Of a stretch of 64,000 nucleotides of DNA, positions 5,713 through 52,118 are shown piece after piece. The position numbers and the translations under genes were made by a program. The notes below the pieces were generated by a model. It was given only the letters and a program-made list of their open reading frames with translations, was not told the origin of the DNA and searched no databases. The DNA comes from Mobula birostris (Eukaryota): the NCBI RefSeq assembly GCF_030028105.1, contig NC_092387.1, positions 37,209,590-37,273,589 on the forward strand, given 5' to 3'. How positions within the stretch are numbered: the stretch's first letter is position 1; each line of letters starts with the position of its first letter.

Positions 5713-5773
5713 TAATACTCAGATTTAATAAGAATGAGGCATTTTGTTCATTCAACATCAGTCACAGAACATA

Positions 5774-7850: not shown

Positions 7851-8089
7851 CAGGAAACATCGTCTATCATTGATTCTTCGGAATACCTATTACCTCTTCC
7901 TGAGGAATTGAGACAAGCATTAGCTTGCTGCCACATGGCCAGGACAGGTACAGTAGCTCAAAAGTTCCCTTCTCTATGATTGATCCAGTGGCTTTTGGGA
8001 TAATTGTTCATGGCAGAGAGCACACTAATGCAGGTTGTTTGGGGTGATTCCAATTTATTTCCCATAGTTCTATTATTGTGGTACCTATT

Positions 8090-8890: not shown

Positions 8891-11039
8891 TGACCTACAC
8901 ACTCATTTGTGCTTAAATTATCAGCTTTGTCCAATTCAGTTTCACAATTCTACAGGATAGAACTGGAACCAAAGGGAAGCCGGTTTCTTACCTTAAATGC
9001 TTGATTGCAATTCCCACTGAGGACAGCCAGGGAAACAATTTTCCATTGCAATATGAATTCTTCAATGAAGCAAAATCAGGCGCACCAATTGCTTTTCAAG
9101 CAAATGTCCTGTCTCCTTTTTTTAACCAGAGTACCAGGAACAGAGAAATGCCTTGGGTCTCTTTCTTCCACTTTGAAATACAAGTGTATCTGGTGGCTTT
9201 AATGTTTTACTTTCAGAACATTGACCAATTCAGATTCAGTCCTGTATATAATTAGAACAATAGCCACTGGTCACCACGACATTAGTTTTTGAACGTCTCT
9301 GGAATGGAAGCCCCTGGCAAGATGAGCTATCTCTGACTGCTGTGGAAATGTTTGCACAACAGAACCAGGCACCTGTTGCCTCGGTGACAGAGCAATCATG
9401 TGTAAACGGACACTGTCAATCTTGAGGCATAGAGAGTCGGGTGTTGGTACGTTTCACTACCATACTGAACCTTACTGAGCAGATTGCAAAGTTTAATGGG
9501 TTTCACTTGAGGCATTCCTACATTAAGATGACAAAGATACAATTACCCCAGCCTTGCCCAGGCCAGGTAGAAACATCACTGAGTCAATCCAATGATTTTA
9601 AGAGTCATGTTTGTATGCAGAGAACATACAGATATAGATAGGTAAATGAACTATTTTCATTATGCAAATTGCCCATAAGTCAATGACAATAAGCCCTCAG
9701 TAGAGTCTGACTGTGCTCCCATTTGCATTGTTTTCTTCAGTGAGTATATCAGTGCAATCTTCTACCAAAACAGTTATAATCAGCATTGTTAATACTGCTC
9801 ACATACACACAAACACTGAGTAAATTTAATTTCAGTCTCATTAACACTTGAGTTTTGTATGCAGGATCTGAGACTGAGCAGTCTCATTCATTAGGTTTGT
9901 CTTTAAGAGTATTGTAGAGTCAACATGCTGAAATTATTAATCATTAAATTACAGCTGGTGCATGAAATAAACTTACTTACTTCACATAGGAGCACAGTGG
10001 TTCCAAATCAATGCTCTGAAAATCCAAAAATCTAGCAATTCTTGACTGAGATCTCTCTTCCCCCCCCCTCCCCCTGCCCCCCTCCCTCTCCCTCTCTCTC
10101 AAAACAATAAGTCTGGGAATTTCAATCCTATTTCTAATGTCTGTGATTTCCATAAATTAGTTTAATTCTCCGACTTTCCAGAGCATTAGAAAATAAAAGC
10201 AAAATAGATTCCATTGAAAACCTAAACCCTATAACCATGACATACAATGCTGTGATAAAGTTCTATGAAATCACTAAGCATTCTAAATGTTTTGGCATAA
10301 TGCCCAATGGTATTGAATTGCTTTGCATAACTGGCATCCAATCACAATATGGTTCATAGGTCGGCATGGCACCCAATGGCTGACTTTGCTCTATGTTATT
10401 ATCTTGTTCTGTGTGATGATGAATGGTCATACAAAATTAACGTAAATAAACACAAATGTTGGCATGAGAACCAAGAGGCACAGGGTCAGCACTATTAACT
10501 GAAAGTTTGGATTATGAACATACTAACAGAAATAAATGGTCTCAGAGGATAGTTTTAAAAACAAATATGGTAATATGTCCAAACAATGTTGAAACTAAGT
10601 ACGATGGCCTTCATAACCAACCTCAAAATTGGCTGTAATGAAGAAAAAAGAAATCAGCACTGATACTGGAATGGCAGGTTCATCACTGCCCACCCTCACG
10701 AAACTCAATGCATCCTAATCAAACCAGGGCTGGATGTTAGCCAGTATGGTCTGGCACAATGTGCTGGTACAAAAGCAGCTGATGCAAAGACTAAAAATGG
10801 GCTAATTATTATCCTGGTAAGAAATTTAAGTTAATTTTTATGCTGAATAAGACTCACTTTGAAAAATGTTAGCAGTGGGTCATTCTGTGCTATGTAAGAG
10901 CCTGACTCTTCAATAAAATGTAAAAAAAACCCTGTTTGTACAGCTTGTTCCTTGTTATCTAGAAATATTCTTACAATGAGTTTATGTTAATTTTCTGGTT
11001 GTGACCTTCCCCATTCTGACACTATATGACTATACCCTC

Positions 11040-20480: not shown

Positions 20481-21075
20481 TTTTTTTTCCCAAAGTCAAT
20501 GTACATTTTATTATCAGAATATATTTAAGTTACACAACCTTGAGATTTGTTTGCTTACAGGTAGCCACAAAGCAAGAATCCTGAAAAAACCTAATTAAGG
20601 AAATAAAAATAAAAGACCAACATCCGACGTGCAAGAGAAAGGGAAAAAATACACAAATCATGAAACAATTGTAGCAAACAACAACATTCCGAATCGAATT
20701 GAGTCCTCAGATCTGAACCCCGGAGCAGCCCAGAGTAGGCCCAAAGCCTCACTTATCAATTCATCATATTAGCGGGCACAGAGCACAGCAGCCAGGGCAG
20801 CCTTCATAACCTCAGCACCATGGAGGGAGGGAGGAATGAGCAAAATCGGCCCTTGCCTCGGATCCCAACAGATTTTTGCTTCAGATTTCTCCATTTGCAT
20901 TTTCTTGTGTCTCCCGGTAGGTTATAGGAGGTTCTGGGGAGAACAACACAATATGCTCAGTATTTCTACAACAGCACAAAATGAGTGCCTTCCGCCTCAC
21001 AGACTGTCCACATAAAACACACATAAAAGTTGCTGGTGAATGCAGCAGGCCAGGCAGCATCTCCAGGAAGAGGTG

Positions 21076-21113
21076 CAGTCGATGTTTCAGGCCGAGACCC
21101 TTCGTCAGGACTA
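21076..21113 (-). ncRNA. Minimal hammerhead ribozyme motif (PLE pLTR)
   Basis: tagtc-CTGACGA-agggtctcggcct-GAAA-catc-gactg on the minus strand. Confidence 0.75.
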
Positions 21114-22097
21114 ACTGAAGGAAGAGTGAGTAAGGGATTTGAAAGTTGGAGGGGGAGGGGGAGATCCAAAATGATAGGAGAAGACAGGAGGGGGAGGGAT
21201 GGAGCCAAGAGCTGGACAGGTGATAGGCAAAAGGGATAAGAGAGGATCATGGGACAGGAGGTCCGGGAAGAAAGACAAGGTGGGGGGGAACCCAGAGGAT
21301 GGGCAAGGGGTATATTCAGAGGGACAGAGGGAGAAAAAGGAGAGTGAGAGGAAGAACGTGTGTATAAAAATAAGTAACAGATGGGGTACGAGGGGGAGGT
21401 GGGGCATTAGCGGAAGTTAGAGAAGTCGATGTTCATGCCATCAGGTTGGAGGCTACCCAGACGGAATATAAGGTGTTGTTCCTCCAACCTGAGTGTGGCT
21501 TCATCTTTACAGTAGATATACTGCGTCCGGTACTCCCGATGTGGCCTTTTATATATTGGCGAGACCCGACGCAGACTGGGAGACCGCTTTGCTGAACACC
21601 TACGCTCTGTGCGCCAGAGAAAGCAGGATCTCCCAGTGGCCACACATTTTAATTCCACATCTCATTCCCATTCTGACATGTCTATCCACGGCCTCCTCTA
21701 CTGTAAAGATGAAGCCACACTCAGGTTGGAGGAACAACATCTTATATTCCGTCTGGGTAGCCTCCAACCTGATGGCATGAACATCGACTTCTCTAACTTC
21801 CGCTAATGCCCCACCTCCCCCTCGTACCCCATCTGTTACTTATTTTTATACACACATTCTTTCTCTCACTCTCCTTTTTCTCCCTCTGTCCCTCTGAATA
21901 TACCCCTTGCCCATCCTCTGGTTCCCCCCCCCTTGTCTTTCTTCCCGGACCTCCTGTCCCATGATCCTCTCTTATCCCTTTTGCCTATCACCTGTCCAGC
22001 TCTTGGCTCTATCCCTCCCCCTCCTGTCTTCTCCTATCATTTTGGATCTCCCCCTCCCCCTCCAACTTTCAAATCCTTTACTCACTCTTCCTTCAGT

Positions 22098-22135
22098 TAG
22101 TCCTGACGAAGGGTCTCGGCCTGAAACATCGACTG
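22098..22135 (+). ncRNA. Minimal hammerhead ribozyme motif (PLE pLTR)
   Basis: tagtc-CTGACGA-agggtctcggcct-GAAA-catc-gactg on the plus strand. Confidence 0.75.
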
Positions 22136-22959
22136 CACCTCTTCCTAGAGATGCTGCCTGGCCTGCTGTGTTCACCAGCAACTTTTATGTGTGTTGCTTG
22201 AATTTCCAGCATCTGCAGAATTCCTGTTGTTTGACTGTCCATATAAGGCGTGTTTATGGGTGTCAACACACTGCACCCATTCAGTCACTTAGAAACTGTC
22301 AGAACAACCTCAGAGAATTGAGCAGTTGATATCATACTCTTAGTCACAATATTTGAGCTGAAGATTATCCACCAAATTGTGCAGTCTATCCCTGAAACAC
22401 ATGGTGATCACCAGAATAAGTCTGTGATTTGTACTCACAGGGTTATTCCAATGATCACTATGTCTTATTTATTGTTATGTGTGTACTTATAAATACTACA
22501 TTACTGTGTGTTACTTATATAATAACCAGTCTAAATATAACATTTCCAGAAACTATTCAGAGTATAAAATAGGGAATGTGATAAGGTTTGATAAAGTAAT
22601 CTCTCATCCTTGCCTTCAGGCCTTTTCTTTCCTAATCTCTATCATTTCTTCCAGCTCTACCATCCTTTCATTTAAGAAGTAAGTCTGGTGTCACATCCTT
22701 TCCCAAATCCAGTGCACCACTTGCAGCTGTGTCTTCAGCAGCAAAGGCCAGAAGCACCGGGATTCATCCCTTAAACCTCCCTGTGATTCTATCATTCTTT
22801 CCTGCTTAAAAAAAAATGCTCCTTAAAACTTTTGACCAAGCTCTTAGGTTGATCTTCCAACTTCAAAGTTGCTATTCAAATGAAAGCTTTGATTATCATA
22901 GCAGATCATGCTTTTTCCAAATCTGTACTTGACCATGCATAAATCACCACCGATCTTAC

Positions 22960-23119
22960 CTGATTATCTGTCACTATCCCAGAGTTTAGCTTGTCTAGGT
23001 CTTTAAATGGTGGCAAAATATCCGTACCGTGGTATTTATAATAAACAGAGAGCTGCTTCATGATGGTCTCGTAGCACTTCATGAAGACTGTATCATTTTC
23101 AGGATCGATATCTTTAAGG
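22960..23119 (-). CDS. Unnamed multi-EF-hand protein, coding exon D
   Basis: tttcgcag acceptor, CAG|gtaaga donor, 160 nt, phase 2 to 0. Reads (N)LKDIDPENDTVFMKCYETIMKQLSVYYKYHGTDILPPFKDLDKLNSGIVTDNQ, with an EF-loop-like DKLNSGIVT. Confidence 0.85.
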
Positions 23120-23383
23120 CTGCGAAATCAAGTAAAAATTAAACATGTAAAATGTTCACTCTGTGGTTGTAGTGTTTGAATTTGCTACAAATTTCCATTT
23201 GGGAGGAGACCTTATTCTCCTTTACTGGACTGAATGATGAAAGATTAAACCTAGCTAAAGGGTGATGTGATTCTAAATGGCTACAGGATGGTCTCTAGTT
23301 TGATGGATTGGTAATGGAGATATTTTATTTTTTATATCATAAGCACTGAATTAATGTTTATCATGGTGAGTGATTTTACTCAC

Positions 23384-23444
23384 TTTTCCAGCGCTTTCGT
23401 TATCTGAAGACTTGGGTCTTTGTCAATTTCATTTGGATTGAAAC
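23384..23444 (-). CDS. Unnamed multi-EF-hand protein, coding exon C
   Basis: ttttatccacag acceptor, AA|gtgagt donor, 61 nt, phase 1 to 2. Reads (R)FNPNEIDKDPSLQITKALE and is in phase with both neighbouring exons. Confidence 0.82.
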
Positions 23445-24445
23445 CTGTGGATAAAATAGATAAATTACTGCATGGATGTTCTCATTTACTTAGTTCCAGC
23501 GACCTTGAGTTTAAGTGCAGAGAATTTTCTGTCTGTAAATTAATGATCTACAGTACCCAGCTACAACACAGTAAAAACTTGTCTTTACATCTACTCTCTG
23601 TCAGCTTTTTCAGCCTTCTAAAAGTTATCTTTTTCACATTTTTATCTACTGACTTATTTAAATATCATGTTGCAATCACACCCTCCTGCGAGTGGTGGCG
23701 CTGTAGTCTCTCCATTTTATTCCTGTGTCCAAACCTAATCAACTCAGGGTCTCCATTACTAGTGTGGGTGTTATTAGTTAACAGTAAACAATAGTTAATT
23801 AACAGCTTGAGGAATGAATAAAAAGAAAATTAAATTGTGCTGGAAGTTGGTTGCCCTGTTTTCTTTTCTTTAACAATGTTGCCAGGATTGCAATAATATT
23901 GTAGGATTTTGTGAATAAAACATACAGTAGTCGTTGTATGTGCTTAACAAAAATGCGGCCCTTTACTTCCATTATGAACAAACCAAATGCAGTCACCTTA
24001 CACTGATGTCATTACGTCAGACACCGTCTCTTAAAGGGAACTCAACAACTCAGTGATGATGTTTGTGAATTATGTAGAACAGCTTCTATTATGAACTATA
24101 TGTGTCAGCCGTCACACACTATATTACCCTACAATGTAATAACTCCAAGGCTCCTTCTGTAAGTTTTAAATTTTGGACACTTTGAGTACGCATCCAACCA
24201 TCTCCAGTCCTCTAGAGTGAAATGAGATCCAGCACTGACAACCAGGGATTGATACAACTCATTGTCGTCTTCTCCTTGAATCATTTGCAATTTGGACAGG
24301 GAAGACTTTGTCTATTCATTTCTAGATTCAAATGTGACCTTGAATGGTATTAAAATCTCCTTTATTACTCCTTCCAGGGTAGTGGAGGTATAATTTGTCC
24401 ATCTGTGCTGATCAACCTATCCTTAACTAAGCTGTTCCACCGTGA

Positions 24446-24996
24446 AGGTCCTTTAACATCTGCCGGACGATGCTGAGGATGTTCTACGAGTCTGTGGTGG
24501 CCAGTGCTGTCATGTTTGCTGTTGTGTGCTGGGGCAGCAGGCTGAGGGTAGCAGACACCAACAGAATCAACAAACTTATCCGTAAGCCAGTGATGTTGTG
24601 GGGATGGAACTGGACTCTCTCACGGTGGTGTCTGAAAAGAGGATGCTGTCTAAGTTGCATGCCATCTTGGTCAATGTCTCCCATCCACTACATAATGTAC
24701 TGGATGGGCACAGGAGTACATTCAGCCAGAGACTCATTCCTCCAAGATGCAGCACAGAGTGTCATAGGAAGTCATTCCTGCCAGTGGCCATCAAACTTTA
24801 CAACTCCTCCCTTGGAGGGTCAGACACCCTGTGCCGATAGGCTGGTCCTGGACTTATTTCATAATTTACTGGCATAATTTACATATTACTATTTAACTAT
24901 TTATGGTTCTATTACTATTTATTATTTATGGTGCAACTGTAGCGGAAACCAATTTCCCCCTGGGGTCAATAAAGTATGACTATGACTATGACTATG
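24446..24996 (+). mobile_element. Young Rex1/Babar LINE 3' end with (GACTAT)n tail
   Basis: Translations MLRMFYESVVASAVMFAVVCWG and RCSTECHRKSFLPVAIKLYN, then aataaag and (tatgac)n. Same family as 57378-57660. Confidence 0.88.
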
Positions 24997-25832
24997 AACA
25001 CGATCTGTTATGAATCAACATGATGCTTTCAGATCAGGTCATGCATAGCACATACCTCCGCTGCACTGTTCTGGTGTGTTTCTGGGGTACAGGGGCTAGC
25101 GACCCTTGTGCCTGTTATCGCTGAGCAGCAGTGAACCATCTGATTGGCCTATCAGAGTTCACTTTGGGAACTAGTTGCCTTGATCAGCATTTCTGATCTG
25201 GCTATTGTTCACGATTGCACTTAATATTAAAAAAACTGGCTCTTGTGGCTAATGTGAAATGAATCCCCAATTCATTCTCTGTAGAAATATCCTTAATAGG
25301 GAGCAAATTGACAATCTGAAAAAGTCTATAGTACAGCTGAAATGGGAAATGATAAAGACATCATGGAAACTCTAGGCAGTTTCTACAGTAGGTTACATGG
25401 TTGGCACAACATTGTAGGCTGAAGGGCCTGTAATATGCTGTAGATTTCTACATTCTATGTTCCAAAGAAGGCTTGAAATAAAGACCGTGCTAGGGCAAAA
25501 TGGTGAAACAGCTGTCCTATATCTGGCCTAAGTAAAATTAATATGGAGAAGGAACTGGAATGTTTAAATGTCAGCATTCCTAGCGTAGATAATATTACAC
25601 ACTTTGAGATTTTGTGCTTCCAGTGCAGGACATATAATATGTTCAGTGAACTAAATTTCATAAATAGAGCTGAGCATGCAGCCATTTTTACAGTGCTCCT
25701 ACAGTTCATACATTCAAGAGCAAATTTCTATCTCCATTGTCCATAACTCTGCCCCATCCCACCCCCAAGCTTCTCCAACATCTACCCACAACTCTTCCCC
25801 CCCCCCGCCACCCCTAGGCAATCTTCACCTAC

Positions 25833-25973
25833 GTTTATCAATGACATCATTGAAGTGCTTGTAGTTGATGGTGCCATTGCACTTTACGTCATATTTACTA
25901 AATAGGGCATTGCTCTCCTCAAGAGTGAGACGAATCCCTATGGTTTGGTCCAAGCATCGCAGGAACTGAGATC
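25833..25973 (-). CDS. Unnamed multi-EF-hand protein, coding exon B
   Basis: tctgtcttacag acceptor, C|gtaggt donor, 141 nt, phase 1 to 1. Reads (R)SQFLRCLDQTIGIRLTLEESNALFSKYDVKCNGTINYKHFNDVIDK, with EF-hand loop DVKCNGTINY. Confidence 0.87.
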
Positions 25974-27128
25974 CTGTAAGACAGATAAATAGAATATAAT
26001 TACTAGGCCATTGATTGTCATATGAACGAATTTCTTAGCAGGAAGCACACTCAATATTGCAGTTGTAAACTACACAGTTCTAAATAGCCACTCCTAGGCT
26101 AGCGACATCAATTGGTGTTGCAATTTGGCATTGTATCCAATATTGCCAACAGGAGAGAAAAACAGGGATGCTCGCTACCATAGGGCATAGTTAATGCACT
26201 TATGCATAGAAATAAGGGAGGCTGGATAATAACCAGAGTAAGAAAGCAAATGAAGCTTGAGTTAAGAAGTACAGGAGATGTGCTGTATTGAGCATAAATA
26301 TCAACAAAGATCAGTGGGAGTAAATAGTTCATTACTCCTGTGATATGGGCTCAATGTTGTGTTATCTCGGTTAATGTGGTTATGTTGGGAGTGTTTGATG
26401 TTGACTACCTGATCTGTCACAGGGTTTTGCATTAGTTATCTAAACCTATCAGAGTAGATTAATGTGATAATAAATGGAATAAACAAATAACATGCTATTA
26501 CACAAGAGCTAACTCATCTCCAAACACAAATAATTTATCATGTGATAACCAAGTATAGAGAAATGGGTAAAGCATGTCCATCATCATGCTGATAGATGAG
26601 GAAATATTTAAATCTGAATAATGTAACAAATTCTAACCAATCCATTTAAGACAAAAAAGAATCCCAATGAAGTGCAGAAATGGAAATAAGAATTTAAGGA
26701 GCAAATGAGCGCCAAATGAAGAGAGATTGAGCAAGAGTGAGATGTGGGTAAACAATATGAAGGAAAAGAATGAGCATATTCATGAGTAGAATAAAGATTT
26801 CGCGATGGGATTTAGGCCATATTTCCAATGTTGCTTTACTCTAATTTCTCTTCCCTCTAATTGTCTCCTTTTTGAGTCAGGATTATTTCCTCTCCTTATG
26901 AACCATAAGGAATAAGTTGGTGTGTGTGTGTTTGTTTCTGTTACTGGCAACTCCCAGGCTCACAAACCTGATTCCCTTGCTTTCATCACTCACTCCCACT
27001 GAACAGTGCAGCTGAACGGCATTCATAGTGATAGTATCGAACAATATAATAATCTGTATAAAATTCATACAGTACAGATGCTTGGGATACTTCGCTAAAC
27101 ATTTTCAACTTGTGTTTTTTTGACTTAC

Positions 27129-27240
27129 TTGTTATATAACCACTGCGTAATTTGTCATAATCTCCAAAGTACTCAGAAATACGAATCCTTTTAGCTAAGA
27201 CTGTATTTCTTATCCTGTTTTCAACAGCTTCAACATCCAT
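27129..27240 (-). CDS. Unnamed multi-EF-hand protein, coding exon A (putative start ATG at 27240)
   Basis: ttttatttttcag acceptor at 27245-46, then TGAA-ATG, and an A|gtaagt donor. Reads MDVEAVENRIRNTVLAKRIRISEYFGDYDKLRSGYIT, with EF-loop-like DKLRSGYIT. An upstream exon is implied but was not located. Confidence 0.87.
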
Positions 27241-28253
27241 TTCACTGAAAAATAAAACAAAACACTTTAATTAGAATTCAGAAACATGCACAATTCTACT
27301 TAACATGATATTGCAACTGTATGTTGAGCCAAAGTATCCATAGTCAATGGAGAACTTTTGAAATATGGTAAATGATAAAATAATTTGATTTGTAAAATTG
27401 GAAGTTGGAACATATTAAATAAGATATCCTTTGAAATTATTAAAGGCCTACATTAGGCTATTGCTTGAACATTTTCTACTTTAAGGATAACATTCAATCT
27501 ATTCATATTGATACAAGCACCCTGACATCATGTAAGTTTTTTATTTGCCTTCCCCATTTGCCTTTTGTTATCCATTTTCTTAAACTATTCACAGTATCCC
27601 ATGTCCAATGTAATCAAGTTACATCAAGTTAACATAACTTCTCTGCTTTGAATTCCATGCTTCCAGGAAGAAATCCCAGAGCAATGTCTGCATTCTTTTG
27701 TGGTCTTTTTGATATGTTGAGTTATTTTTAATAATTTGCAAACATATATTCATAAATTTTTTTACCTCTAATCCATTCAAACTCATCTATGGATTTGAAA
27801 GGGGCACGACTTTCCTGCAAATTTTTTTAATAAAACTTTGAGTCAAGGTAAATATTGTCAATTTGCATGCATCAGTGGTGTGACTGCTGAGGCTTTTGTT
27901 TGTTAGCTGTAAATTCTGACAGAAGATTTAACGATCAGTACTGAGGAGCTGGGAACATGATTTGAACTGATGTTAAAAGCTTTTGTAAGATTATTTCAGT
28001 TAATGCCTATGGCATAAGACATAGGAAGAATGACATTCCACTTAGTTTTACTGTTTGATTTTCATTTTGGAAACTAACATAACTAGCCTGTTTGAAACTA
28101 TGAACTTTCTGGTCTCTTTCATCCTTCCCAACGGTGGCGCATTGATAACAACAAATTTTTAAATTAATTTGCTGTTGCTTTAGCTACTTAAGACTTCCCT
28201 TTGTCTGGCTGTTGTTGATAAAGTCAGCATTTATTGACCCTGCCTAATTGCCC

Positions 28254-31843: not shown

Positions 31844-31955
31844 GCAACACACATCAAAGTTGCTGGTGAACGCAGCAGGCCAGGCAGCATGTCTAGGAAA
31901 AGGTACAGTCGACGTTTCGGGCCAAGACCCTTCGTCAGGACTAACTGAAGGAAGA
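31844..31955 (-). mobile_element. Very short solo PLE pLTR end
   Basis: Nearly identical to 21016-21125 and 43698-43808. It is truncated just upstream of the hammerhead. Confidence 0.85.
31906..31943 (-). ncRNA. Minimal type I hammerhead ribozyme, canonical core
   Basis: The minus strand reads UAGUC-CUGACGA-A-GGGUCUUGGCCC-GAAA-CGUC-GACUG. Stem I is UAGUC/GACUG, stem II is GGGU/GCCC, stem III is the palindromic ACGU, and the cleavage triplet is GUC. Confidence 0.85.
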
Positions 31956-39400: not shown

Positions 39401-40059
39401 GTCTAATAACTAACACTGTGACTAGAATGAACAAAATTCAAGATATGTAAACAACATTCCATAACTTCACAATTCAGAGACACTCTATTGTCTTAACCAT
39501 CAATGTGTTTAAGCTGTTTCAAATGACTTGCAGTTTATTGTCTTGTTCCTGTCTTATAAATGGCCAGGAAACAAAAACATTTCTGCACATTTCAAACAGA
39601 ACCAATATGGTCAGCAAAACACAGTACTGACCTAACTAAATCCACCACATGCTACAAATTGTTTTTGTTCCTGTTCATAGCTATTTTCATCAATGAACAA
39701 TCTTGCTTTAATCTTTGTCTTTTAAAGATAATGAATTACAAAATATTAATCTTTAGTAGCAGGAAGTCTACCCGTTATAGAATTAAAATAGGCCCGGAAG
39801 ATTTTTTAATCTATACATACAAATTGCTACAGCTTAATATTTAAAAGCAGCATTAGATTCAGAGATTAATTTACCTTGAATTTAAATAATGTGAAGATTT
39901 TAGCAATTCCTTGGGACCAATCAAATCTCCATTTCCCAGCCGTGTCTCTCTCTTCTATTCCTCTCTCCCTCCCCATCCCCCTCCCTCTCTTGTCACTGTC
40001 TGGGGCAGAACAAGACTATTTGGCATCCAATTTAACCAGCAGCTGAGCTATCTTATATT

Positions 40060-40999: not shown

Positions 41000-42250
41000 C
41001 ACGAAGAGTAGGGTCCCTTTAAAGATGGCAATCCTTAACTGTGAAGATCTGCTGGCTGGGCGCCTTTCCTCTCGTCTCGCAGCAAGAGGCAGCCAGTAGG
41101 CGGTGCTGCCTGGAGTTTGCTTCACTGCAGGGTGAGGGTTGGACGTGCGGTAAAGGCTAAAAGACTGAAATAGAACGCGATTAAAGCGTTGAACTTTTCT
41201 TTTGCCTTAAAAACAAAATTTAAGGAGAAACGAAGATGTCTGCAGGTTGCCAGCAAAGCGAATGTCGCGTAATCCCCACCAGGACAGTGATTCTGAATGA
41301 TGCAACGCAGCTACCTCATGATTATTGCACTACACCGGGAGGAACGCTGTTCTCCACCACTCCAGGAGGTAAATACATATTAACAATCAATAATGCAACC
41401 TTCCCGGCTCCGGTTTGGGGTTCATGTCATCAGCAAATCCGGCAAATGTGCAGCGGCCTATTCCGAGTGCTGCCCTTTAAATCCGTTAAAAAGTGGGTGG
41501 AGGAACCTTAAGACGGCTGCGATTGCAGAAAGAAACCAAGTGCTATATCTGTGATCATTTTCAGCTCGATTCAGTTTCCGTTGTGCAGATTTGTCCGTTC
41601 TGTCGGTAGAAAAGCAAACCAGAGTGCAGGCCGTTTGCCAAGAGGCAGAACCTCGTGCTGTCGAGTCTGAGCGAACTTTTAGTAACCTGCATAGATTTTT
41701 TGGCAAAATGCAAGCGTACCGTTGCCAAATAAGGATTAGTGCATCTGTGCGGCAATGTTGCACACTTTTATTTTGTATTCGCCGATTTTATTTTAAGTGC
41801 ACGCTTCGAGGCGGCGGATGGGGCTGGCTGAATTCGCTGCTCGATTTCGGGCCCGCTCCGCTGCGGCGAGTTTCCTGTTTGCTCTGATCACTCGGTCTGT
41901 GCGAGTGTTTTGTTTTAGGATTTCGGGCTCTTGTTAAATGTCAGTGTTGCATCTGAATGGGAAAGTGATTGCGCTGGCGTTTCTTTTGCCTCGCTCCTTT
42001 TCCCAGAGGTTGGATTTTTGTGTCTGGCTCTCGTGATCTCGTCTCGTCCCGTCCGTCGCGCACGAACCGAGTCAGCAACACCCGCCTCCCCCTGCCAAAC
42101 CTTCTGCCTTTTGATTAATCCCTGTCCAGTCTCTGCGTGACTGGGTAGGGGGGCTATATTGAGGGAACATCGAGCTAGAATCAGAACGCTTCAAGGGATA
42201 GATCAAATATGAAAATCGGAGCGAGTCCCACCAAACTATAAACCGATAAA
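41000..42250 (+). promoter_or_regulatory. CpG-rich promoter / first exon / start of intron 1 of the 4E-BP gene
   Basis: CpG dinucleotides rise sharply in non-repetitive DNA around the ATG, compared with the CpG-poor background. A YY1-like aagatggc lies at 41022-41029. Confidence 0.65.
41236..41368 (+). CDS. EIF4EBP2: eIF4E-binding protein, coding exon 1
   Basis: Reads [44 protein letters not shown] with donor GAG|gtaaat, phase 1. [10 protein letters not shown] is the 4E-BP2 form. Family assignment is near certain, paralog assignment is likely. Confidence 0.95.
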
Positions 42251-43697
42251 TCACAACAAAAGAATTTTTCTAACTTAATCAGGTGATGGTAACTTCGCAT
42301 TTAATTGGTGCTTTCCTCGAGCACAGGACGTCCCAAGCGCTTTATAGCCAATGGGGTAATCCTGTGTTTAAAATGCAGTCGTAATGTGGGAAATACAGGA
42401 TCCAACATGGACACGGCAGGCTTTCACTGTATGCGGAATAGATGGTTCGTGTTAGTGAAATAAAAGCAGAGAATGCGTGAAAAAACTGTGCAGGTCAGGC
42501 ACATAGAGGCAGTTAACATCTTGGATCCAAGCACCTTCACCAGAACTTGTTTTTGTGATGTGGATACAAAGAGAGACATTAGGCACACTCCTTAACCTCA
42601 TTTGAAATAATTCCGTTTGCAACTGCTTGAGGGGGGAGACCGCTATCAGTTTAAAGTTTCTTCTGAAAGACTGGTCCGAATCTCTGTGCGGCACTTTCTC
42701 AGTACTGCTCTGGCCTTGTCCAACTGATGTTGGGTGGGATTTGATTCCTTGACGTGAAATGAAGTGGCTGATGACTGCTGTGTTCCCAGTATCTCAAAAT
42801 GCTCTACCGTGCAACGCGAAATCCGAAATGGAGGGAGGACAAAGCAGGGGAGAGAAATTTTTCCTTTGGGAGAAATTATTTGTTTATGATGTGTTTGACA
42901 GCAACAATGAACTTGGATACGATTGAAAGGGGTTAGACTGCCTGTTTATTTACTAGATAAAACATTTTGACTGTAATGACAAAAAAAAACTCGTATCACT
43001 TTTAGTTGCTACCTGATCTTTCATAAATACAGTATGGTGCAGAGTTTTAACCTTAAAACACTGATGAAAACCGAATTGGACAAGAGTGATCCCCGTGCGA
43101 CTTTGGGAAGTGAAGTAAATATGATTCTGCGATGGGTGGGGAGGTGTAGTTGAAGAATTATTAATGGAAAATGTGCACTTGTTGCCAAGACGATAAGTCT
43201 CTTGTTATTCTGGCAACTTTTTAACTGAGTTAGTAAAATACAGTACTGTGGAATATCAACAGATTCCTTCATTTCAGCAAAGGAGAATAAAACTTTTAAA
43301 ATTCCTGCCCCAGTCTTTGAGACAACATGGGAAAGTTTATCTGAGAGTCAGGTATAGCCACTGTATTAAGGCAGGCTTCTAATAGTAATAATATTTGTTC
43401 TACTCCTCATGCTCATACAAGTCCGAAGAGCAATTGGGCTTGCCTCAGTTGAAAGTATGCTGATGTATTCATATCAAGTATATTGTATTCTTCTGGATTT
43501 GTTTCAACAGATATAAGAATGAAGACCAGAGAGATAAAAATCAGAACTGATGAATGGTCCAGTCAAAATGTTATTTGCCTTCTGGTTAAAGATTTTTAAT
43601 TGTATAAGATCTTGAGTGTTGTATGTGTGACTCATTAAATCTTGTGGCCTGAAGAAGAGTATGTACTGCAGATACAATGAAACTTTAAAGATTTAAG

Positions 43698-44396
43698 CAA
43701 CACACATCAAAGTTGCTGTTGAACACAGCAGGCCAAGCAGCATCTGTAGGAAGAGGTGCAGTCGATGTTTCAGGCCGAGACCCTTCGTCAGGACTAACTG
43801 AAGGAAGAGTGAGTAAGGGATTTGAAAGTTGGAGGGGGAGGGGGAGATCCAAAATGATAGGAGAAGACAGGAGGGGGAGGGATAGAGCCAAGAGCTGGAC
43901 AGGTGATAGGCAAAAGGGGATACGAGAGGATCATGGGACAGGAGGTCCGGGAAGAAAGACGGGGGGGGGGGGGGGGAGACCCAGAGGATGGGCAAGAGGT
44001 ATATTCAGAGGGACAGAGGGAGAAAAAAGAGAGTGAGAGAAAGAATGTGTGCATAAAAATAAGTAACAGATGGGGTACGAGGGGGAGGTGGGGCCTTAGT
44101 GGAAGTTAGAGAAGTCGATGTTCATGCCATCAGGTTGGAGGCTACCCAGACGGAATATAAGGTGTTGTTCCTCCAACCTGAGTGTGGCTTCATCTTTACA
44201 GTAGAGGAGGCCGTGGATAGACATGTCAGAATGGGAATGGGATGTGGAATTAAAATGTGTGGCCACTGGGAGATCCTGCTTTCTCTGGCGGACAGAGCGT
44301 AGATGTTCAGCAAAGCGGTCTCCCAGTCTGCGTTGGGTCTCGCCAATATATAAAAGGCCACATCGGGAGCACCGGACGCAGTACATCACCCCAATC
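43698..44396 (-). mobile_element. Young Penelope-like element 3' part (open GIY-YIG domain and pLTR) in 4E-BP intron 1
   Basis: Translation YCVRCSRCGLLYIGETQRRLGDRFAEHLRSVR...DGMNIDFSNF. 13-bp TSD ttaaagatttaag at 43685-43697 and 44397-44409. Confidence 0.92.
43759..43796 (-). ncRNA. Minimal hammerhead ribozyme motif (PLE pLTR)
   Basis: tagtc-CTGACGA-agggtctcggcct-GAAA-catc-gactg on the minus strand, antisense to 4E-BP. Confidence 0.75.
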
Positions 44397-44859
44397 TTAA
44401 AGATTTAAGATTCATCTGTTTTTTAAGATAGTAAAGTATGAAGGGATGTATATCTCATGTAATGATTGGGCAGTGTGTAATATCAAAAAGCCACTCGTAA
44501 ATTGGAAACCATTATCCAGTTACAGACTGAAATTATTTTTTTAATAGCATGGTCTAATCATGGGTGGGTAACCTATAGAATGTGTGGCGAAAATGTCACA
44601 AGCAAAAATTGTGTTGTCACATGGCATGCAGTGCCACTTCTTGGTTGCTTAAACCCCACTCATAATAAAAAGATAATCATTTCTGCCAAATGTCTCATCG
44701 AGGGTAAGCGTATTTATTTTCCTTGAGGAGCAACCTGATTGACAACAAAATTATGGCTAGGCGGTGGGAATATTTTCCCCCAAAGTTGAGAATGTCTGAA
44801 ACGAGACGACATGGGGTAGGAGGTTTAGAGTGAATCTGAGCAATAATAAACCTGAATCT

Positions 44860-45370
44860 GAGATTCTTCTGAAGTTGAGAGGGGATTCTGATAGTCACGT
44901 GTCACATCTACGGGCTGTTCCCAGGGGCATGCATCAGAACAGACTTCAATTCTGCCGGAAGGTCACGAAAGACATCCTTTGGTCTGCCCGAAATTCATTG
45001 GTCTTCCAGTGTGGTGAGATAACTGTAAGGGAATGCTGCCAACTGGCAAATTCCAGGATGCAGGAGATTGTGCTGTGGGGTGCCACTGAAGCTTGATGCG
45101 GCTAATGCAGAGTCTCTGAAGGACCCCAGTCTAGGCCCCTTCTGGTGCCACATGTGGAGGGGCTGAGTCGAGTTGGGGAAAGTCCTTAAGCATTTGAAAT
45201 GGTCTATCATCCCAGGGGGCCACATAAGTGATAGTGGTACTATGATTTTAAAAAAAAAAGATAAATTAACACAACTGAATGTATTGACTATGAATGTAAA
45301 AGCTTTGCACTGTTTCTTCTGTATATTTGTTTATTATGACTAAGTTTTGTTTCTGGAATTTAAAAAAAAC
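44860..45370 (+). mobile_element. L1/Tx1-type LINE 3' fragment
   Basis: Translation KDILWSARNSLVFQCGEITVRECCQLA resembles a Tx1 ORF2 C-terminus. It ends in an A-run. Confidence 0.6.
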
Positions 45371-47254
45371 TCTGATTTTGATTGGAGGTGGTGAGCTACA
45401 GGTGTTAGCTCTAACCAATCTGAATCGAGTAGATTCTAATTTTGCCCACTGAATCATCTGATAGCAATACCTGAGGCCTGCTGTTCAGAAGAACTGTTTT
45501 TGTTTTCAAACTGAGAGGAGTTTAGGTTCTCAGGTTCCATCGTTGTGTATTGGTATCTCCAACAATAAGTGGAGCCCTAGACATGCATGTGTGCAATATA
45601 AAGATAATAATCTGAATCCTGTGTTTAAAAAATTAGACGAACTTAGAGATGAGGTAATATTGTTATGTTTCTCATATTATTGATGTTTCCTTGTTACCCT
45701 GAATGGTGAAATATCTGTTGAGAAACCAGGGGCACGTTTTAGTCAGAGAAACGTAGTGGCTTTGGGGATGAGTGGGACCATTACTGCTAGTTAGAAGAAT
45801 CTGTGCCATTATAATTAGGCAGACCTACCTGCCGTGTTCTAAAGTGAATGAATCATTCATTGTTGTAGTCCAGTCCTGAAAAGAAATTCCATTGTGCCTT
45901 TTGCAGAAGTGTGATGAGCATTGATTACAGGAATTCTATTCCATGCTCTGTAATACTATGGCTCTATGCATGGGGATGAAATTAACAACATGTACAACTT
46001 TAAGAAAGCGTTTGGGTTCTGCTGTGATGTTTTGGGGTGATTCTGAGCACAAGACAAGAAGTCAGCAGCCCTTCTGTTAAGACCTTGTAGTTGTGAGAGA
46101 AAATGCTCTGAAGCAGAATTAGTAGGACTTTGTTATTAGCGTACTGACTGCTCGCAGTACTGAAAAATGAAAATGCATTATATTGAGCCAGGAAAGATCT
46201 GACGCTATCAGAGACAGAGATGAATAGACCAGCAGACGGAATATTAACTACATAGTCAAAAACTGGTTGGCACAATTGAAGGTGTAGTGGCATCTGCACT
46301 GGACTTTGGAGCAAGTAGTCCTGGTTTCGAATCAGACTAGCTCCTTGCACGCTTTCCATCCATGCTGGGTTGAGGGTAGAGCTAGCAACTCTCTCATAAA
46401 ACAGACAAATGCTAAAATGAGTGAGGCATGCAAAGGTATTACTTACAATTGAAGGTTACCAGTTTTATATAGCAAAGTATTGCTGTTCCTTACTTCAAGA
46501 TAAATTTCTGATTTCAAATGACATTTATATGAAATAGAGGAGCTTAAATTTGAAGTTTTTGCCTCGGGTCACAAAGGCGGTTATTGCAGTTTGAGAGTAT
46601 TGGTTCTGTATCAATGTAAACACCAATTTTGTATACTTTTGACAATGTTGGGCATGACCCTGGAGCATCGGAAAAGATGGATTTCTCCAGTCCTAGGGGT
46701 TATTGTCATCTGAAGGCACAGAAATAAAGGAGATAGGAAAGTGTGACCATGTAGAAGTTCATCATTATGCCATGTGATTGTTCATCTCTTGGACCATAGA
46801 TTTAGGATGATAATATTGACGAAACTCATTTTCCTCCAATACCCAGCCTTTCATTTTTGGAAATTATTAAATACTTGTTAGCTGTCGTTATTTTGATCCA
46901 GTGGATGAAAAGAGTTTGAATTATAAAGGTAATGAATAAATTCCCCAGCATTTTCTAGAGACGCACAGATCTGGAAATGTCAGAAATATTATCCCTACTT
47001 AGTCCTGCCCTACTACAGTTGGTGTTACCCATAGAGTTAGTCACAGCCCATACAAGGCTAATTGCACTTGTGATGAGCAAAATGGACATGTGAACTCAAT
47101 ACCTGGACTTACACAGTTGGTATGTGAATTTTAAATTTGCAAAAGCTTAAGTTGGAGAAGCTACTTTTATCTGCGGATTTTAATGATAAAATGAAAGTAG
47201 TATGTGAGAATATTTTTGATCTTTGAGTCCTTCAGAGGACCACATCACATTTGG

Positions 47255-47488
47255 GCAACACAAACACAAAAGTTGCTGGTGAACGCAGCAGGCCAGGCAG
47301 CATCCCTAGGAAGAGGTGCAGTCGACGTTTCAGGCCGAGACCCTTTGTCAGGACTCCTGACAAAGGGTCTCGGCCTGAAACGTCGACTGCACCTCTTCCT
47401 AGAGATGCTGCCTGGCCTGCTGCGTTCACCAGCAACTTTTGTGTTTGTGTTGCTTGAATTTCCAGCATCTGCAGAATTCCTGTTGTTT
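47255..47488. mobile_element. PLE pLTR ends inserted as a near-perfect 199-bp palindrome plus 35-nt tail
   Basis: 47255-47353 pairs with 47355-47453 (1-nt spacer, one mismatch). 12-bp TSD acatttgggcaa at 47247-47258 and 47489-47500. Confidence 0.92.
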
Positions 47489-48138
47489 ACATTTGGGCAA
47501 TGTTGGTTAATGCATTATCAGCTAAAATTAATTCACATGTCTAGAACAATGCTTGGATGCAGCTTTCTATTGAAGAATGCTGTTTTTCAGATCACATATT
47601 GGAGTTAGGATTATAGAAAGTTATAGCATAAGAAAAGGCCATTTTCTCCGTTATGCCTTTTTCATTTCTTTGATAAATCCTCTTCCTCTCCTCTTTCCTC
47701 ATAGCACAATGAATTTTATATTTATCCAGTTTCCTTAAAGAAAGCCTTCAGGTTGTGTATTCCAGCTCCAGGAAAATTCAGTGTGCTTACATTTTTAAAA
47801 GGAAAAACTCCACATCTCCCTTCTATTTAGGCAGTTTACCTTTAGTCTGTGTTGTGATTTTATTCTTTCCCTGAGTAGAAATAGTTTTACTTACTGTTTA
47901 CACCTGTTATAGCCTTTTAATAGTTTTAAATGCCTCAGTCATAACTCTGAGCAGACTTTTTGTATCCATAGAGAACAGCCAGTGTCTTCTTGTACCAGAT
48001 GCCCCTCATAACTGATAGCATTCTAATAAGCCCCCACTCCACCTATCGTAGGCTTGTTAAAGGATTTAACACTTAATGTGCAGTCATCTGAGTAATTATG
48101 TGGGATTTTATCTGTAAAATTTAATTTTGCTATTTCAG

Positions 48139-48312
48139 GCACCCGGATTATTTACGATCGGAAGTTTCTTATGGACTGCCGTCATTCTCCAATTGCAAAG
48201 ACTCCACCTCGTTACCTCCCGCACATCCCAGGTGTAACAACCCCTGGCATTGCTGAAGATACCAAGGCAGAAGCAAACAATGCTGCTCACAGTGAAGGAA
48301 AATCATCCACTG
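48139..48312 (+). CDS. EIF4EBP2: eIF4E-binding protein, coding exon 2
   Basis: tatttcag acceptor, TG|gtgaga donor, 174 nt. Reads (G)[57 protein letters not shown], containing the YXXXXL-phi motif YDRKFLM and IPGVT. Confidence 0.96.
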
Positions 48313-48529
48313 GTGAGATATGGTGATTTTAAACTACAGGGAGTTGTGGGGGCAATGGGGGGGGGGGGAGAGGAAAAAAGCTAGACTGACTTAATTTTTT
48401 CTCATTAATTCATAAATTGGAGATGCTGGGGAGATTGCAAGGATCAGAACGGATCAGTGGTTGGGTACACCATCAATGATTGCTGATCCAGTTAATTTAA
48501 TGCAATCTTAACAGTTTAATTATTCGATA

Positions 48530-48855
48530 TTTTGAAGGTAAAGATTGGCGTTATTTGTCACATGTAAATGGAAACATACACTGAACTGCATTGTTTGTGT
48601 CAACAACCAACACAGTCTGAATATGTGTTGCGGCAGCCCGCAAGTGTCAGCACACTTCACTTAGTATGCCCCAACTCACTAAACCTAACCATATGTCTTA
48701 GGAATGTGGGAGGAAACCAGAGCACCCTGAGGAAAACCATGCAGTCACGGGCAGAACATACAAACTTCTTAAAGACAGTAGTGGAAATTGAACCCCGGTC
48801 TTAGAGCTGGGGCTGTAAAGCGCTGTGCTAACTGCTATGCTACCCTACTGCCTGG
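48530..48855 (-). mobile_element. HE1/V-SINE-like element
   Basis: gtgggaggaaaccagagcaccctgaggaaaaccatgcagtcacggg is the reverse complement of the SINE central domain, followed by the reversed tRNA head. Confidence 0.7.
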
Positions 48856-50192
48856 ATTGTGTGCGTGTGTTCGATGCCCTAAATGTGTGCTGAAGCTAAT
48901 ATTAACTGTAATTCAGAAGTGGCAAATAAAGTGCAAAATCGGGGCAGTTGTGCTTTGAGCAGTACTGAAGTAATTTGAGTTCCTTGGGAGAGTTCGAAGG
49001 CAAACCTCAAGTATTATACATTGGCAGCATTTGTCTGCAGAACTTTGGGATAATGGTTAATGCTGTTAAATAGATGAAAGAAATGAAGTGGTGGTGACAA
49101 GAGTAACCAGGATGATGGAAAGTCAAGAGGAAGAAATGGGGGCTGGGGAAGTAAAATTGGCAGAGGAATTGATGAGCTCCTGCGCAGCAGATGCAGATGG
49201 GGCTGGTAAGTGGGGTGACGAGCATCATAGTCAGGCCTAGTAGGTTAGAAAATAAATACTCATTCAACAATACACTAATTACACATGGCATAAATCATAA
49301 TCTTTTAATCTAATTTCCGTGGAAAAGTAAATACCACTCTGCACGTATTGACAATAATTATGTGCACAAAATGTGTGGGGAAGTGATGACAGCATTAGGT
49401 TGAATCACAGCAGGGAACGCCTGGTTCAGTTTCCACACAGCTGGGTTTTTGCCAAGAAGTGTGTGCAAGCTTTGCAGAACTGTGCCCGAAATCATGGCTC
49501 AAAAACAAATGATTTTCATTCTTTGTAGGCAGCTACATTACATCTTGAGTTCTCCATCCTACATATCCTGTGTTCTTTCCCTTCTGTGTTTTTCTGTCTA
49601 TGTTCACTCTTGCTGCCTTGTCTGCTGTGCGGTTATTCCTCTAACACATCTACAGTGCTGATCTGTCTGGAATTATCCATAGCCAGTCTGTTTTTCCTTT
49701 TTCACTCTAAGATGAAGGAGCAGGAAAGTTGTTACCTGGAGGGTTGAGAATCAGGAAAACTCCAACGAGACCATCAGCGGTACCAAGAGTTTTCTTTACA
49801 AGTTGACTTGTAGGAGGAGATGGAACTTAAATGTACTTACCTGGGGTTCAAGAGCAGTACTAATAGATGTGGTTCTGTAGTGAAGACTTCTGAAGTTACC
49901 AGTGCGTAGTCTGGGTACTTCGACCCTACAGCCATTAACTGTGCCATAAGGAGACTTCCCAATCAATGCCTATGCCCAGCAAAACTGGGCCCGCTTGATT
50001 TTTGGCCAGCAACTGCAGCAGTAATGTGAGACAATTGTTTAAATGATCTGTAATCAAAATACTCTGAAGACCCTCATCCGACACTGGATTCTCTAGTTGG
50101 AATTGTGTTTTCTTTGGGGGACATAGATTTCACTGACGCGGCATTTATTGCCCATTCAGAGCTGCATGTTCAAAATTATAAATCTATACATG

Positions 50193-51004
50193 CAGTGGAT
50201 TCCGGTTAATTGGTCCATTGTTTAATAGGGACAGCTGCTTATTTGGAACAACTCTTAAAGAACAAGAACAAATCAAGAAAATAGCCAGGTTCCCTTTGTT
50301 TATTTGTACCACTGTGCGAGTTAATTGGGACAGGATTCTGTTGCCAGTTTGTTAGTTGCATGCACATCGCCTGGCAATTAGACACTACACCATGCTTACA
50401 GTAAACAGTTTTTAAATAGTGTCACTCGCCTGTGTTTGTGTTCAAAAATCAGTGATCTTTGTCACTGATAGTTGGCGAGTAATAAGCAATAAGTTCATTC
50501 AGAACTGTTTCACTCATTGTAGTTTCAAGCATTCAGGCTTGGAGGAATGGCCAGGAGTGAAAATGAAAAGATTTCATTACTTCAACAAGTTAACAAGTTA
50601 GGAACTATAAAGAATTTGAATGTTTTGACAATCATCTTGAATGTTGCAATGAAAATTAAGATTTGGAGGATGCAATCATTGAATGCATTATATGAAGGCA
50701 GTCCATTATCTGCACTAGGCATTTACACTGATTCTGTTCACTTACAGTCACTTAAAAGAACATGGTAGCAAACTTTGGATTAATTCCTATGTTGATAACT
50801 ATTAGGAACTAATGCACAATTTTATAGTAGTTTTGGAAATGTTCTAATTTGTTCTGTATTTCATTTAAATACATAATTTGTTACTCAGCTAAATGGTATG
50901 TTGTCTTTTTTTTATATACCTCTTTAACTATTTCCATGAAACTTCAGCTAATTTGGTGAAAAATATACTGGTCTTGATGTGTGCTAATTAACCAGAATCC
51001 CCTG
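50193..51004. mobile_element. Old non-autonomous Tigger-like DNA transposon
   Basis: Inverted termini cagtggattccggttaattgg and ctaattaaccagaatcccctg, with internal gttaattggg(ac) repeats. The flanking TA has decayed. Confidence 0.65.
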
Positions 51005-52086
51005 CATTTGCTTGTATTTAATGTTGTGATTTGAGCTTGTGTCTTTGGGTCAGTAATCTGGCCTTCTGCATGTCAGTTCAGTAACTTAAACCTTACTCAC
51101 ATTCTGCCACAGCTGTTGCCAGTTAACTCAGCATAAACTTGGGATCTGAGGTACTCCTGGCTTGTGTGTTAGAGATGCAATAGGAATTATATTTAACCCG
51201 TTCTTTCTATGGATACACTCGGCTGTCCACGTGATTTTTAAATAAGGAAAATTCTGACATTACTCTGCTTCCTCACAGCCTCTCATCTTTCTCCATTGCA
51301 GCCATCACCATCCATTCACCCCTTCTCATATGCTTAATTCCCTGTCCCCTGTATTAAATATTCAGCCTTACTCCTTGATCATCCATGCTGAATCCTTGTA
51401 CCTTGCTATTTCTTTCAAATACTGCATTTAGTATTTGGCTTAAGTTAATAGTTTCCATCTGGCATTTCATCCAGAAATGAGTGTACAAACTAAGGCTGAT
51501 ACCCCTGTGATAATATTGACTTGGTGCTGTGGCATGGAAGGTGACTTCTTCAGATAAAGTACTGAACTTAGCATTTACTGCTTCGGATTTAAAAGATCCC
51601 GTGCTACTCGTTGAGAGCAAGGGAGTTCCCGTTGGTAGCCTAGCCAATTAGTATCTATCAACCAACTGCATTCATTGCAAATAATTGCAGCCAGAGGGAA
51701 AATAATCACCTATATTTCAGCACTTGAATCCACCATGGTTTGTCAACAGTGGAGACTATAAGGCTATAACAAAAAACATGTAGATCATCTGAGGAGGTGA
51801 AAGGTGCTACAGAAATTCAAATTCTTTCTAATTACTTTATGAAACTGGCATCTGTCAAAATTTAATTGAGAACATGAAACCAGTCTCTTATCATGGGGCT
51901 CTTCCTCACTGGGAGTGATTAGGAGTGTTGTTGGATTATAACTGCTTTGACCTTAACTGGGAAGCCTGTTTTAATCTTTGAAACTGATGCATTCTCCTAC
52001 CCTTTGACTCAACACATGCTTCTGATGACTTGACTTAAAATAATTCACGCACCAAAATGTTGACCTTTGTCTCTCTCTTCTTCCAG

Positions 52087-52118
52087 GGGACGAAGCTCAA
52101 TTTGAGATGGATATCTAA
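52087..52118 (+). CDS. EIF4EBP2: eIF4E-binding protein, coding exon 3
   Basis: Strong polypyrimidine tract ending ttccag. Reads (G)DEAQFEMDI-TAA, with the C-terminal TOS motif FEMDI. Total protein is 112 aa. Confidence 0.96.

What the first reader, a model, noticed from the sequence alone, without database searches (positions are those of the whole stretch)
31906..31943. Fully canonical minimal hammerhead ribozyme in a ~110-bp solo Penelope end
Seen in sequence: the minus strand gives UAGUC-CUGACGA-A-GGGUCUUGGCCC-GAAA-CGUC|GACUG, with all core nucleotides, stems I and II, a GUC triplet and a loopless palindromic stem III (ACGU). Established: PLE terminal repeats carry such minimal hammerheads, which cleave best as dimers (Cervera & de la Pena 2014). 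Inference: this is the best-preserved copy here. It is sense to the EF-hand gene and lies between that gene's exon A and the CpG promoter at 41 kb, so it could be transcribed within a 5' intron.
Basis: partly seen in the sequence, partly recalled or inferred. Interest (0 to 1): 0.7.

Follow-up and report, generated by a model that had tools for sequence, protein, structure and literature searches.

The report
Ordinary Penelope hammerhead stub in intron
This is a real, intact copy of the tiny "hammerhead" RNA motif already known from Penelope-type jumping genes, one of an estimated 70,000 equally intact copies in this (likely ray) genome; it lies in an intron but is predicted to fold shut and is likely inactive there, so it is ordinary.

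Summary
It is not fully canonical: it has an extra A after A9 and no stem III, the published signature of Penelope-like element (PLE) minimal hammerheads. It sits in a 112-bp end piece (31844-31955) of a Neptune/Nematis-type PLE; a full-length copy elsewhere carries the motif in both pLTRs. A 31-base core has 6,863 exact matches in this genome. In a 1.5-Mb sample, 28 of 109 copies are equally intact, core CpGs decay like non-core CpGs, and this copy's divergence is the median, so being best preserved in the window is chance. Contigs from other runs place it sense in a 5' intron of the EF-hand gene. But the monomer is predicted to fold into a rod that buries core and cut site, both sense neighbours in that intron are broken, and published monomers do not cleave. 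Family-wide, many copies begin at the motif's front edge, few at the cut site; rare joints at the cut site have a comparable peak at a non-ribozyme control site. This scan reported the same family and patterns many times before, also in this genome.

The parts
31906..31943 (-). Minimal type I hammerhead motif (PLE min-HHR): stem I 31943-31939 with 31910-31906; core C3-A9 31938-31932; extra A 31931; stem II 31930-31919; G12-A15.1 31918-31915; C15.2-C17 31914-31911
31910..31911 (-). Predicted cleavage bond, after C17 of the GUC triplet
   Evidence: sequence read on the hammerhead consensus as drawn in PMC4209133; cleavage not tested
31844..31955 (-). 112-bp pLTR end piece of a Neptune/Nematis-type PLE, from 12 nt before the motif to the common tail-less 3' end; no target-site duplication found
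27129..27244 (-). Exon A (first coding exon) of an uncharacterised multi-EF-hand gene; 95% identical to ray proteins
39875..39904 (-). Upstream 5' exon (at least this stretch), GT donor, spliced to exon A in a contig of run X2
52053..52081 (-). Alternative upstream exon (at least this stretch), GT donor, spliced to exon A in contigs of runs X1 and X4; abuts EIF4EBP exon 3 antisense
41236..41368 (+). EIF4EBP coding exon 1 in the CpG-rich stretch
43691..44404 (-). Sister PLE piece: GIY-YIG end of the ORF plus pLTR with motif 43796-43759 (ACAU, palindrome broken); nearest sense copy, 11.9 kb upstream in the long intron
47255..47494 (.). Fold-back pair of PLE ends joined at the motif's front edge; both cores carry G8A
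21016..22233 (.). Inverted pair of PLE 3' pieces with a GIY-YIG frame; motifs 21113-21076 (-) and 22098-22135 (+), both ACAU

Best explanation
This is a 112-bp terminal-repeat piece of a very abundant Neptune/Nematis-type Penelope-like retrotransposon that carries the known minimal hammerhead motif, and it is likely a neutrally decaying, inactive passenger in an intron. Shown: the motif, the parent element with the motif in both pLTRs, the copy number and the neutral decay. Inferred: such stubs likely arise when the element's reverse transcriptase starts inside the RNA, about 100 or 135 nt downstream of the motif's start, and copies an uncut RNA back to a 5' end near the motif's front edge. 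Predicted: in the host pre-mRNA the lone motif folds into a rod (GACG of the core pairs with CGUC at the cut site) and would cleave only as a dimer or with the element's protein, which normally happens, if at all, in the parent element's RNA.
For: Parent: L033 holds a 1114-aa open frame with RT (RVT_1, E 1.4e-5) and GIY-YIG (E 0.0066) matches, both below Pfam's cut-offs, and the motif on each side, 3,728 nt apart; the window's own GIY-YIG frame passes the cut-off (23 vs 22.6 bits). The frame has a CX4CX2C linker and the CCHH motif, which PMC8557442 (passages) gives for Neptune/Nematis. Abundance: 6,863 exact matches to the 31-mer core, 0 for the reversed control; 173 copies in 1,516,919 sampled bases, about 4.6e5 genome-wide; 28 of 109 intact, about 7e4. 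Neutral decay: 9-11 of 51 young copies have lost each of four motif CpGs versus 7 of 51 at a CpG outside; core-breaking CA is as common as TG; this copy 2 of 82 non-CpG changes = median. Ends: 3' ends cluster near +100 and +135 (+1 = first base of the motif); 20 of 67 young copies (15 independent events) start at -15..+15 versus 1 of 67 at +30..+38; 12,507 of 53,602 exact matches lack the element's base at -10; about 95 of 100 listed copies run through the cut site. Internal RT starts and uncut template are shown in vitro for an anole PLE (PMC11167929, main text). Folding: core-burying helix P>=0.95 in 3 of 3 contexts; active double hammerhead -16.7 versus two monomers -25.8 kcal/mol. Published monomer inactive (PMC4209133).
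Against: The copy is intact, has the canonical G10.1-C11.1 pair that the majority subfamily lacks (39 of 51 have G-U), and lies sense in a transcribed intron in related animals. Secondary-structure energies ignore tertiary contacts and protein help. 17 of 72 rare head-to-tail joints end exactly at the cut site, so the family motif may cut in vivo. Orthologous presence or absence of this insertion could not be tested. No target-site duplication was found. Clade assignment rests on motifs, not a tree.
Confidence: 0.88

Rival explanations
1. This copy cleaves the EF-hand gene's pre-mRNA in vivo, by pairing in trans with abundant PLE-derived RNAs or with help from the PLE protein, and so lowers or reshapes the gene's expression.
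For: Intact core and stems; sense position in the 5' intron of both isoforms seen; many PLE-like contigs in the runs laid; protein-assisted cleavage shown for an anole PLE hammerhead (PMC11167929).
Against: No sign of selection on genomic copies or on this one; monomer rod and unfavourable dimer; the two other sense copies in the long intron are broken (ACAU; G8A); dimers cleave weakly even in cis (PMC4209133); a cut in an intron need not block splicing (own knowledge).
Confidence: 0.04
2. The stub is a non-autonomous retrozyme or SINE-like unit that moves on its own rather than a by-product of the full element.
For: Short copies of similar length are very common and many start within a few bases; monomeric retrozyme derivatives are described, also in one chondrichthyan (10.64898/2026.07.22.740005, parts 1-2).
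Against: It is colinear with the autonomous element's pLTR with no sequence of its own; starts are spread from -26 to +12 and most copies extend far upstream (38 of 67 young copies start before -30); it is not in a tandem array.
Confidence: 0.05
3. The stub is an ordinary random 5' truncation of a long copy, and its start near the motif is coincidence or reflects RT failure at a hairpin rather than the template's 5' end.
For: This copy starts at -11, not at the +2/+3 mode (27 and 23 of 100 listed); PLE copies are commonly 5'-truncated (PMC8557442, passages).
Against: Starts are about 13-fold denser at -15..+15 (20 in 31 nt) than at -299..-31 (13 in 269 nt); an RT blocked by the hairpin would stop at its 3' foot (about +38), not its 5' foot (inference). 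Starts at -12..-10 recur among joints.
Confidence: 0.25

Closest known systems
Minimal hammerheads (min-HHR) in pLTRs of metazoan Penelope-like elements, incl. fish Xena, Poseidon and Neptune (Cervera and De la Pena 2014, PMC4209133; read: parts 1-2 of 4, search in 2 of 3 supplements)
   Same: Type I layout, no loop 3, palindromic 15.2-16.2, extra nucleotide between 9 and 10.1, G10.1-C11.1, short stem I, position in both pLTRs, mostly dispersed single copies from truncated elements.
   Different: Stem II is 4 bp rather than 7-8 bp as in Schistosoma; copy number far higher (about 7e4 intact versus about 4,000-9,000 reported for coelacanth and Xenopus); no shark, skate or ray found by term search in the two supplement files searched.
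Poseidon element of Anolis carolinensis, PAc (Frangieh et al. 2024, PMC11167929; read: parts 1-2 of 4)
   Same: Hammerhead near the start of the ORF-bearing unit; two 3' ends about 35 nt apart (tail); inserts made from uncut RNA.
   Different: This element has the CX4CX2C linker absent from Penelope/Poseidon; its first ATG lies downstream of the motif rather than at stem II; nothing was tested biochemically here.
Neptune/Nematis EN+ PLEs (Craig et al. 2021, PMC8557442; read: passages)
   Same: RT then CX2-5CxxC linker then GIY-YIG with CCHH; partial tandems, inverted 5'-truncated copies, 30-40-bp tail.
   Different: No tree was built, so Neptune versus Nematis is open.
Non-LTR retrozymes (10.64898/2026.07.22.740005; read: parts 1-2 of 5 and passages)
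   Same: Short non-coding PLE-derived units with a type I hammerhead; monomer derivatives dispersed.
   Different: Defined by at least two tandem units with complete hammerheads; this copy is single and colinear with an autonomous PLE.

Membership tests
PLE minimal hammerhead (min-HHR) | Core CUGANGA, GAAA and NUH triplet | tested here: met
PLE minimal hammerhead (min-HHR) | Stems I and II can form; G10.1-C11.1 pair; one extra nucleotide between 9 and 10.1 | tested here: met
   extra A in 56 of 57 older copies
PLE minimal hammerhead (min-HHR) | Palindromic 15.2-16.2 without loop 3 | tested here: met
   ACGU
PLE minimal hammerhead (min-HHR) | Located in the pLTRs of an RT + GIY-YIG element | tested here: met
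   L033: motif on both sides of a 1114-aa frame; window copies 3' of GIY-YIG frames
PLE minimal hammerhead (min-HHR) | Self-cleavage as a dimer or with the element's protein | not testable with these tools
   indirect genomic signal inconclusive
Canonical type I hammerhead (Rfam models) | Match to an Rfam hammerhead model | tested here: not met
Canonical type I hammerhead (Rfam models) | Closable stem III and an open three-way junction in the monomer | tested here: not met
   no loop 3; monomer predicted as a rod
Neptune/Nematis EN+ PLE (parent element) | CX2-5CxxC linker between RT and GIY-YIG; CCHH motif | tested here: met
   translation; definition from PMC8557442 passages
Neptune/Nematis EN+ PLE (parent element) | RT phylogeny groups with the clade | not tested
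   no reference set fetched
Non-LTR retrozyme | At least two tandem units each with a complete hammerhead | tested here: not met
   single 112-bp copy; nearest sense copy 11.9 kb away and broken

The most novel reading that the evidence does not exclude
Tens of thousands of intact minimal hammerheads, this one included, are cut inside host pre-mRNAs by pairing in trans with abundant Penelope RNAs or with help from the Penelope protein, so that transposon activity tunes host transcripts genome-wide; the rare joints that end exactly at the cut site would be the fossil record of that cleavage in living cells.
Probability: 0.04. Interest if true: 0.65.

Novelty: new member of a known kind. Interest (0 to 1): 0.12.

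Why it matters
As a single locus it matters little: it is one of a very large number of equivalent transposon stubs. The family is a useful test bed for an open question, what PLE hammerheads do in vivo, because the copy number is high enough to read template ends from the genome: copies start at the motif's front edge and run through the cut site, as expected if uncut RNA is the template. If trans-cleavage of host introns were real it would be a new way for a transposon to act on host RNA, but nothing here points to it.

Tried and rejected
Rfam scan: no hammerhead hit; this reflects the models, not absence of the motif. Target-site duplication: none of 5 nt or more near the ends. Search for RNA runs: no holder on record as RNA; 4 contig sets with small shares were laid; they are contigs from other animals, cannot show strand, level or RNA ends, and no listed piece joined this copy to its flanks. 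Cap signature (extra G before copies starting at +2): 8 G, 4 A, 15 C among 27 listed (by eye); no clear excess, and sister subfamilies with C at +1 confound it. Cut-site fossil: 17 of 72 events at +33 but 16 of 72 at +38..+40, and a control stretch without ribozyme has 10-13 of about 62 events at one position; not accepted as proof. Selection on the motif in older lineages: core 0.88, stem I 0.92, stem II 0.87 versus 0.81 for the 3' part in 57 older copies, no two-sided stem changes of note; weak and biased by alignment to one reference. My first guess of the Poseidon clade was dropped because of the linker motif. Lunse et al. (RNA Biol, small hammerhead variants cleave as dimers) is not held; seen only as a reference title and through the review PMC6765202 (passages). 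Four requested stretches on contig C2 did not exist.

Full report
Numbering: +1 is the first base of the motif (window 31943, minus strand); the predicted cut is between +33 and +34.

1. Observation. The minus strand reads UAGUC CUGACGA A GGGU CUUG GCCC GAAA CGUC | GACUG at 31943-31906. All hammerhead core positions are present, stem I has 5 pairs, stem II 4 pairs with G10.1-C11.1, and positions 15.1-16.1 are the palindrome ACGU with no loop. An intact-core pattern matches once in the window and never in 100 shuffles. Two details make it minimal, not canonical: an extra A between A9 and G10.1 and the missing stem III loop. Rfam finds no hammerhead here. Cervera and De la Pena list exactly these features for PLE min-HHRs (PMC4209133, parts 1-2 read).

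2. What it is part of. The motif lies in a 112-bp repeat, 31844-31955, with 10 related copies in the window. Three of them lie about 300 nt downstream of a GIY-YIG frame on the same strand (PF01541). A search of the own genome with that frame gave 177,890 first-look candidates, 150 scored. One of four long copies that I fetched, L033, has an 1114-aa open frame with weak RT and GIY-YIG matches and the motif on both sides, 3,728 nt apart, in the partial-tandem layout of PLEs; the other three carry the motif only downstream of the frame. The frame has a CX4CX2C linker before a GIY-YIG domain with the CCHH motif, which marks Neptune/Nematis rather than Penelope/Poseidon (PMC8557442, passages). The host is a cartilaginous fish, likely a ray: the neighbouring exon is 95% identical to ray proteins.

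3. Is this copy special? No. A 31-base core has 6,863 exact matches in the 4.0-Gb genome, 0 for the reversed control. In 152 stretches of 10 kb taken at round coordinates on the large contigs (1,516,919 bases), 173 copies were found, about 4.6e5 genome-wide; 68 are young. Of 51 young copies that span the motif, 20 have intact core and stems; of 109 of all ages, 28 (about 7e4 genome-wide). Each of four CpGs in the motif is lost in 9-11 of 51 young copies, against 7 of 51 for a CpG outside; the core-breaking CA change is at least as common as TG. The fifth position differs by subfamily: 39 of 51 have U11.1, 11 have C11.1 like this copy. This copy differs from the majority at 4 of 112 positions, one a CpG loss in loop II, and its non-CpG divergence (2 of 82) is the median. 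One intact copy among 10 is what these rates give.

4. Gene context. The EF-hand gene's coding exons lie at 27244-27129, about 25973-25834, 23444-23393 and 23119-22960 on the minus strand. Contigs from three runs (kind guessed as RNA, other animals) extend exon A upstream: the X2 end matches 39878-39904 with 1 mismatch and the X1/X4 ends match 52054-52081 with a one-base gap; both places have a GT donor. The CpG-rich stretch at 41 kb holds EIF4EBP exon 1 on the plus strand; it may be bidirectional for the 39.9-kb form (inference), but not for the 52-kb form. These contigs cannot show level or RNA ends.

5. Would it cut there? Predicted not. The monomer folds into a rod in which GACG (G5-G8) pairs with CGUC (15.2-17); that helix has probability 0.95 or more in the 38-, 112- and 241-nt contexts. 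The active double hammerhead scores -16.7 kcal/mol against -25.8 for two monomers and -35.9 for the inactive duplex (secondary structure only). The other two sense copies in the long intron are 11.9 and 15.4 kb away and broken (ACAU; G8A in a 99-bp fold-back). In print, a single min-HHR showed no detectable cleavage and dimers little (PMC4209133); an anole PLE hammerhead cleaved only with the element's protein, its cleavage was not needed for insertion, and no RNA-seq ends were seen at its cut site (PMC11167929, parts 1-2 read).

6. How such stubs likely arise. 3' ends cluster near +100 and +135, like the two internal RT start sites that define the tail in the anole element. Among 67 young copies (1 of 68 dropped at a stretch edge), 20 start at -15..+15 (15 independent events, as 11 belong to six fold-back pairs), 13 at -299..-31 and 1 at +30..+38. 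Genome-wide, 12,507 of 53,602 exact matches to +6..+24 lack the element's C at -10; of the 100 listed, by eye 27 start at +2, 23 at +3, 20 at +4..+6, 23 at -9..+1 and 7 are long copies with a change. Of 100 listed copies anchored 3' of the cut (those without C at +25 only), about 95 run through it and 1-2 start at it. So templates were mostly uncut, and many had a 5' end at the motif's front edge (start of transcription or processing; not resolved). This copy starts at -11, off the mode.

7. Does the family cut in vivo? Earlier notes raised this, so I tested it. Among 84 head-to-tail joints onto +3 (72 events after merging 12 same-locus or duplicated rows; read by eye), 17 end exactly at +33 and 16 at +38..+40. 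In 16 of the 17 cut-site loci fetched the extra piece is short, starting at -10..+13, and the 3 fetched +40-type loci look the same. A control stretch with no ribozyme (81 rows, about 62 events) has 23 events at +68..+70, 10-13 of them at +69. The cut-site peak is the highest single position but not unique, so cleavage is hinted, not shown.

8. Known and new. PLE min-HHRs, including in fish Neptune elements, are published. This scan has already noted the family many times: 76 findings in at least 22 genomes by words and 183 notes fitting in this genome, with the same front-edge and cut-site patterns. These are unchecked AI notes on partly the same data, not independent support.

9. Verdict. 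Observation confirmed; interpretation partly supported. A new but ordinary member of a known kind, likely inert at this site. Interest 0.12.

Noticed in passing
window 41236-52116 (+) and 52053-52081 (-): EIF4EBP (exons at about 41236-41368, 48144 and 52083-52116) lies nested antisense inside the long 5' intron of the EF-hand gene in the form seen in runs X1 and X4 (two studies); that form's upstream exon runs into EIF4EBP exon 3 on the opposite strand.
   Followed up: partly
genome-wide sample: The dominant young subfamily has G10.1-U11.1 (39 of 51) instead of the canonical G-C pair yet spread widely, which suggests an optimal hammerhead is not needed for its transposition.
   Followed up: partly
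window 31906-31943 (-): With C or U at N7, any min-HHR ending in CGUC can pair its own core with its cut site, giving a built-in off state for monomers.
   Followed up: partly
L173-L192: Short extra pieces starting near +2 and ending at +33, +38..+40 sit at the 5' joints of insertions, often at the centre of fold-backs, as expected from template jumps or re-copying at the RNA's 5' end.
   Followed up: partly
L033, ORF (2670-6014, minus): The long PLE frame holds an internal duplication of a proline/serine-rich block of about 70 aa before the RT.
   Followed up: no
window 47315-47393: The PLE fold-back gives a spurious Rfam miRNA match (mir-3926, 51.6 bits, below the gathering score of 82).
   Followed up: yes
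window 22921-27244 (-): The multi-EF-hand gene (924-963 aa in rays and a catshark) is unnamed in the sources; only its first four coding exons match in the window.
   Followed up: no
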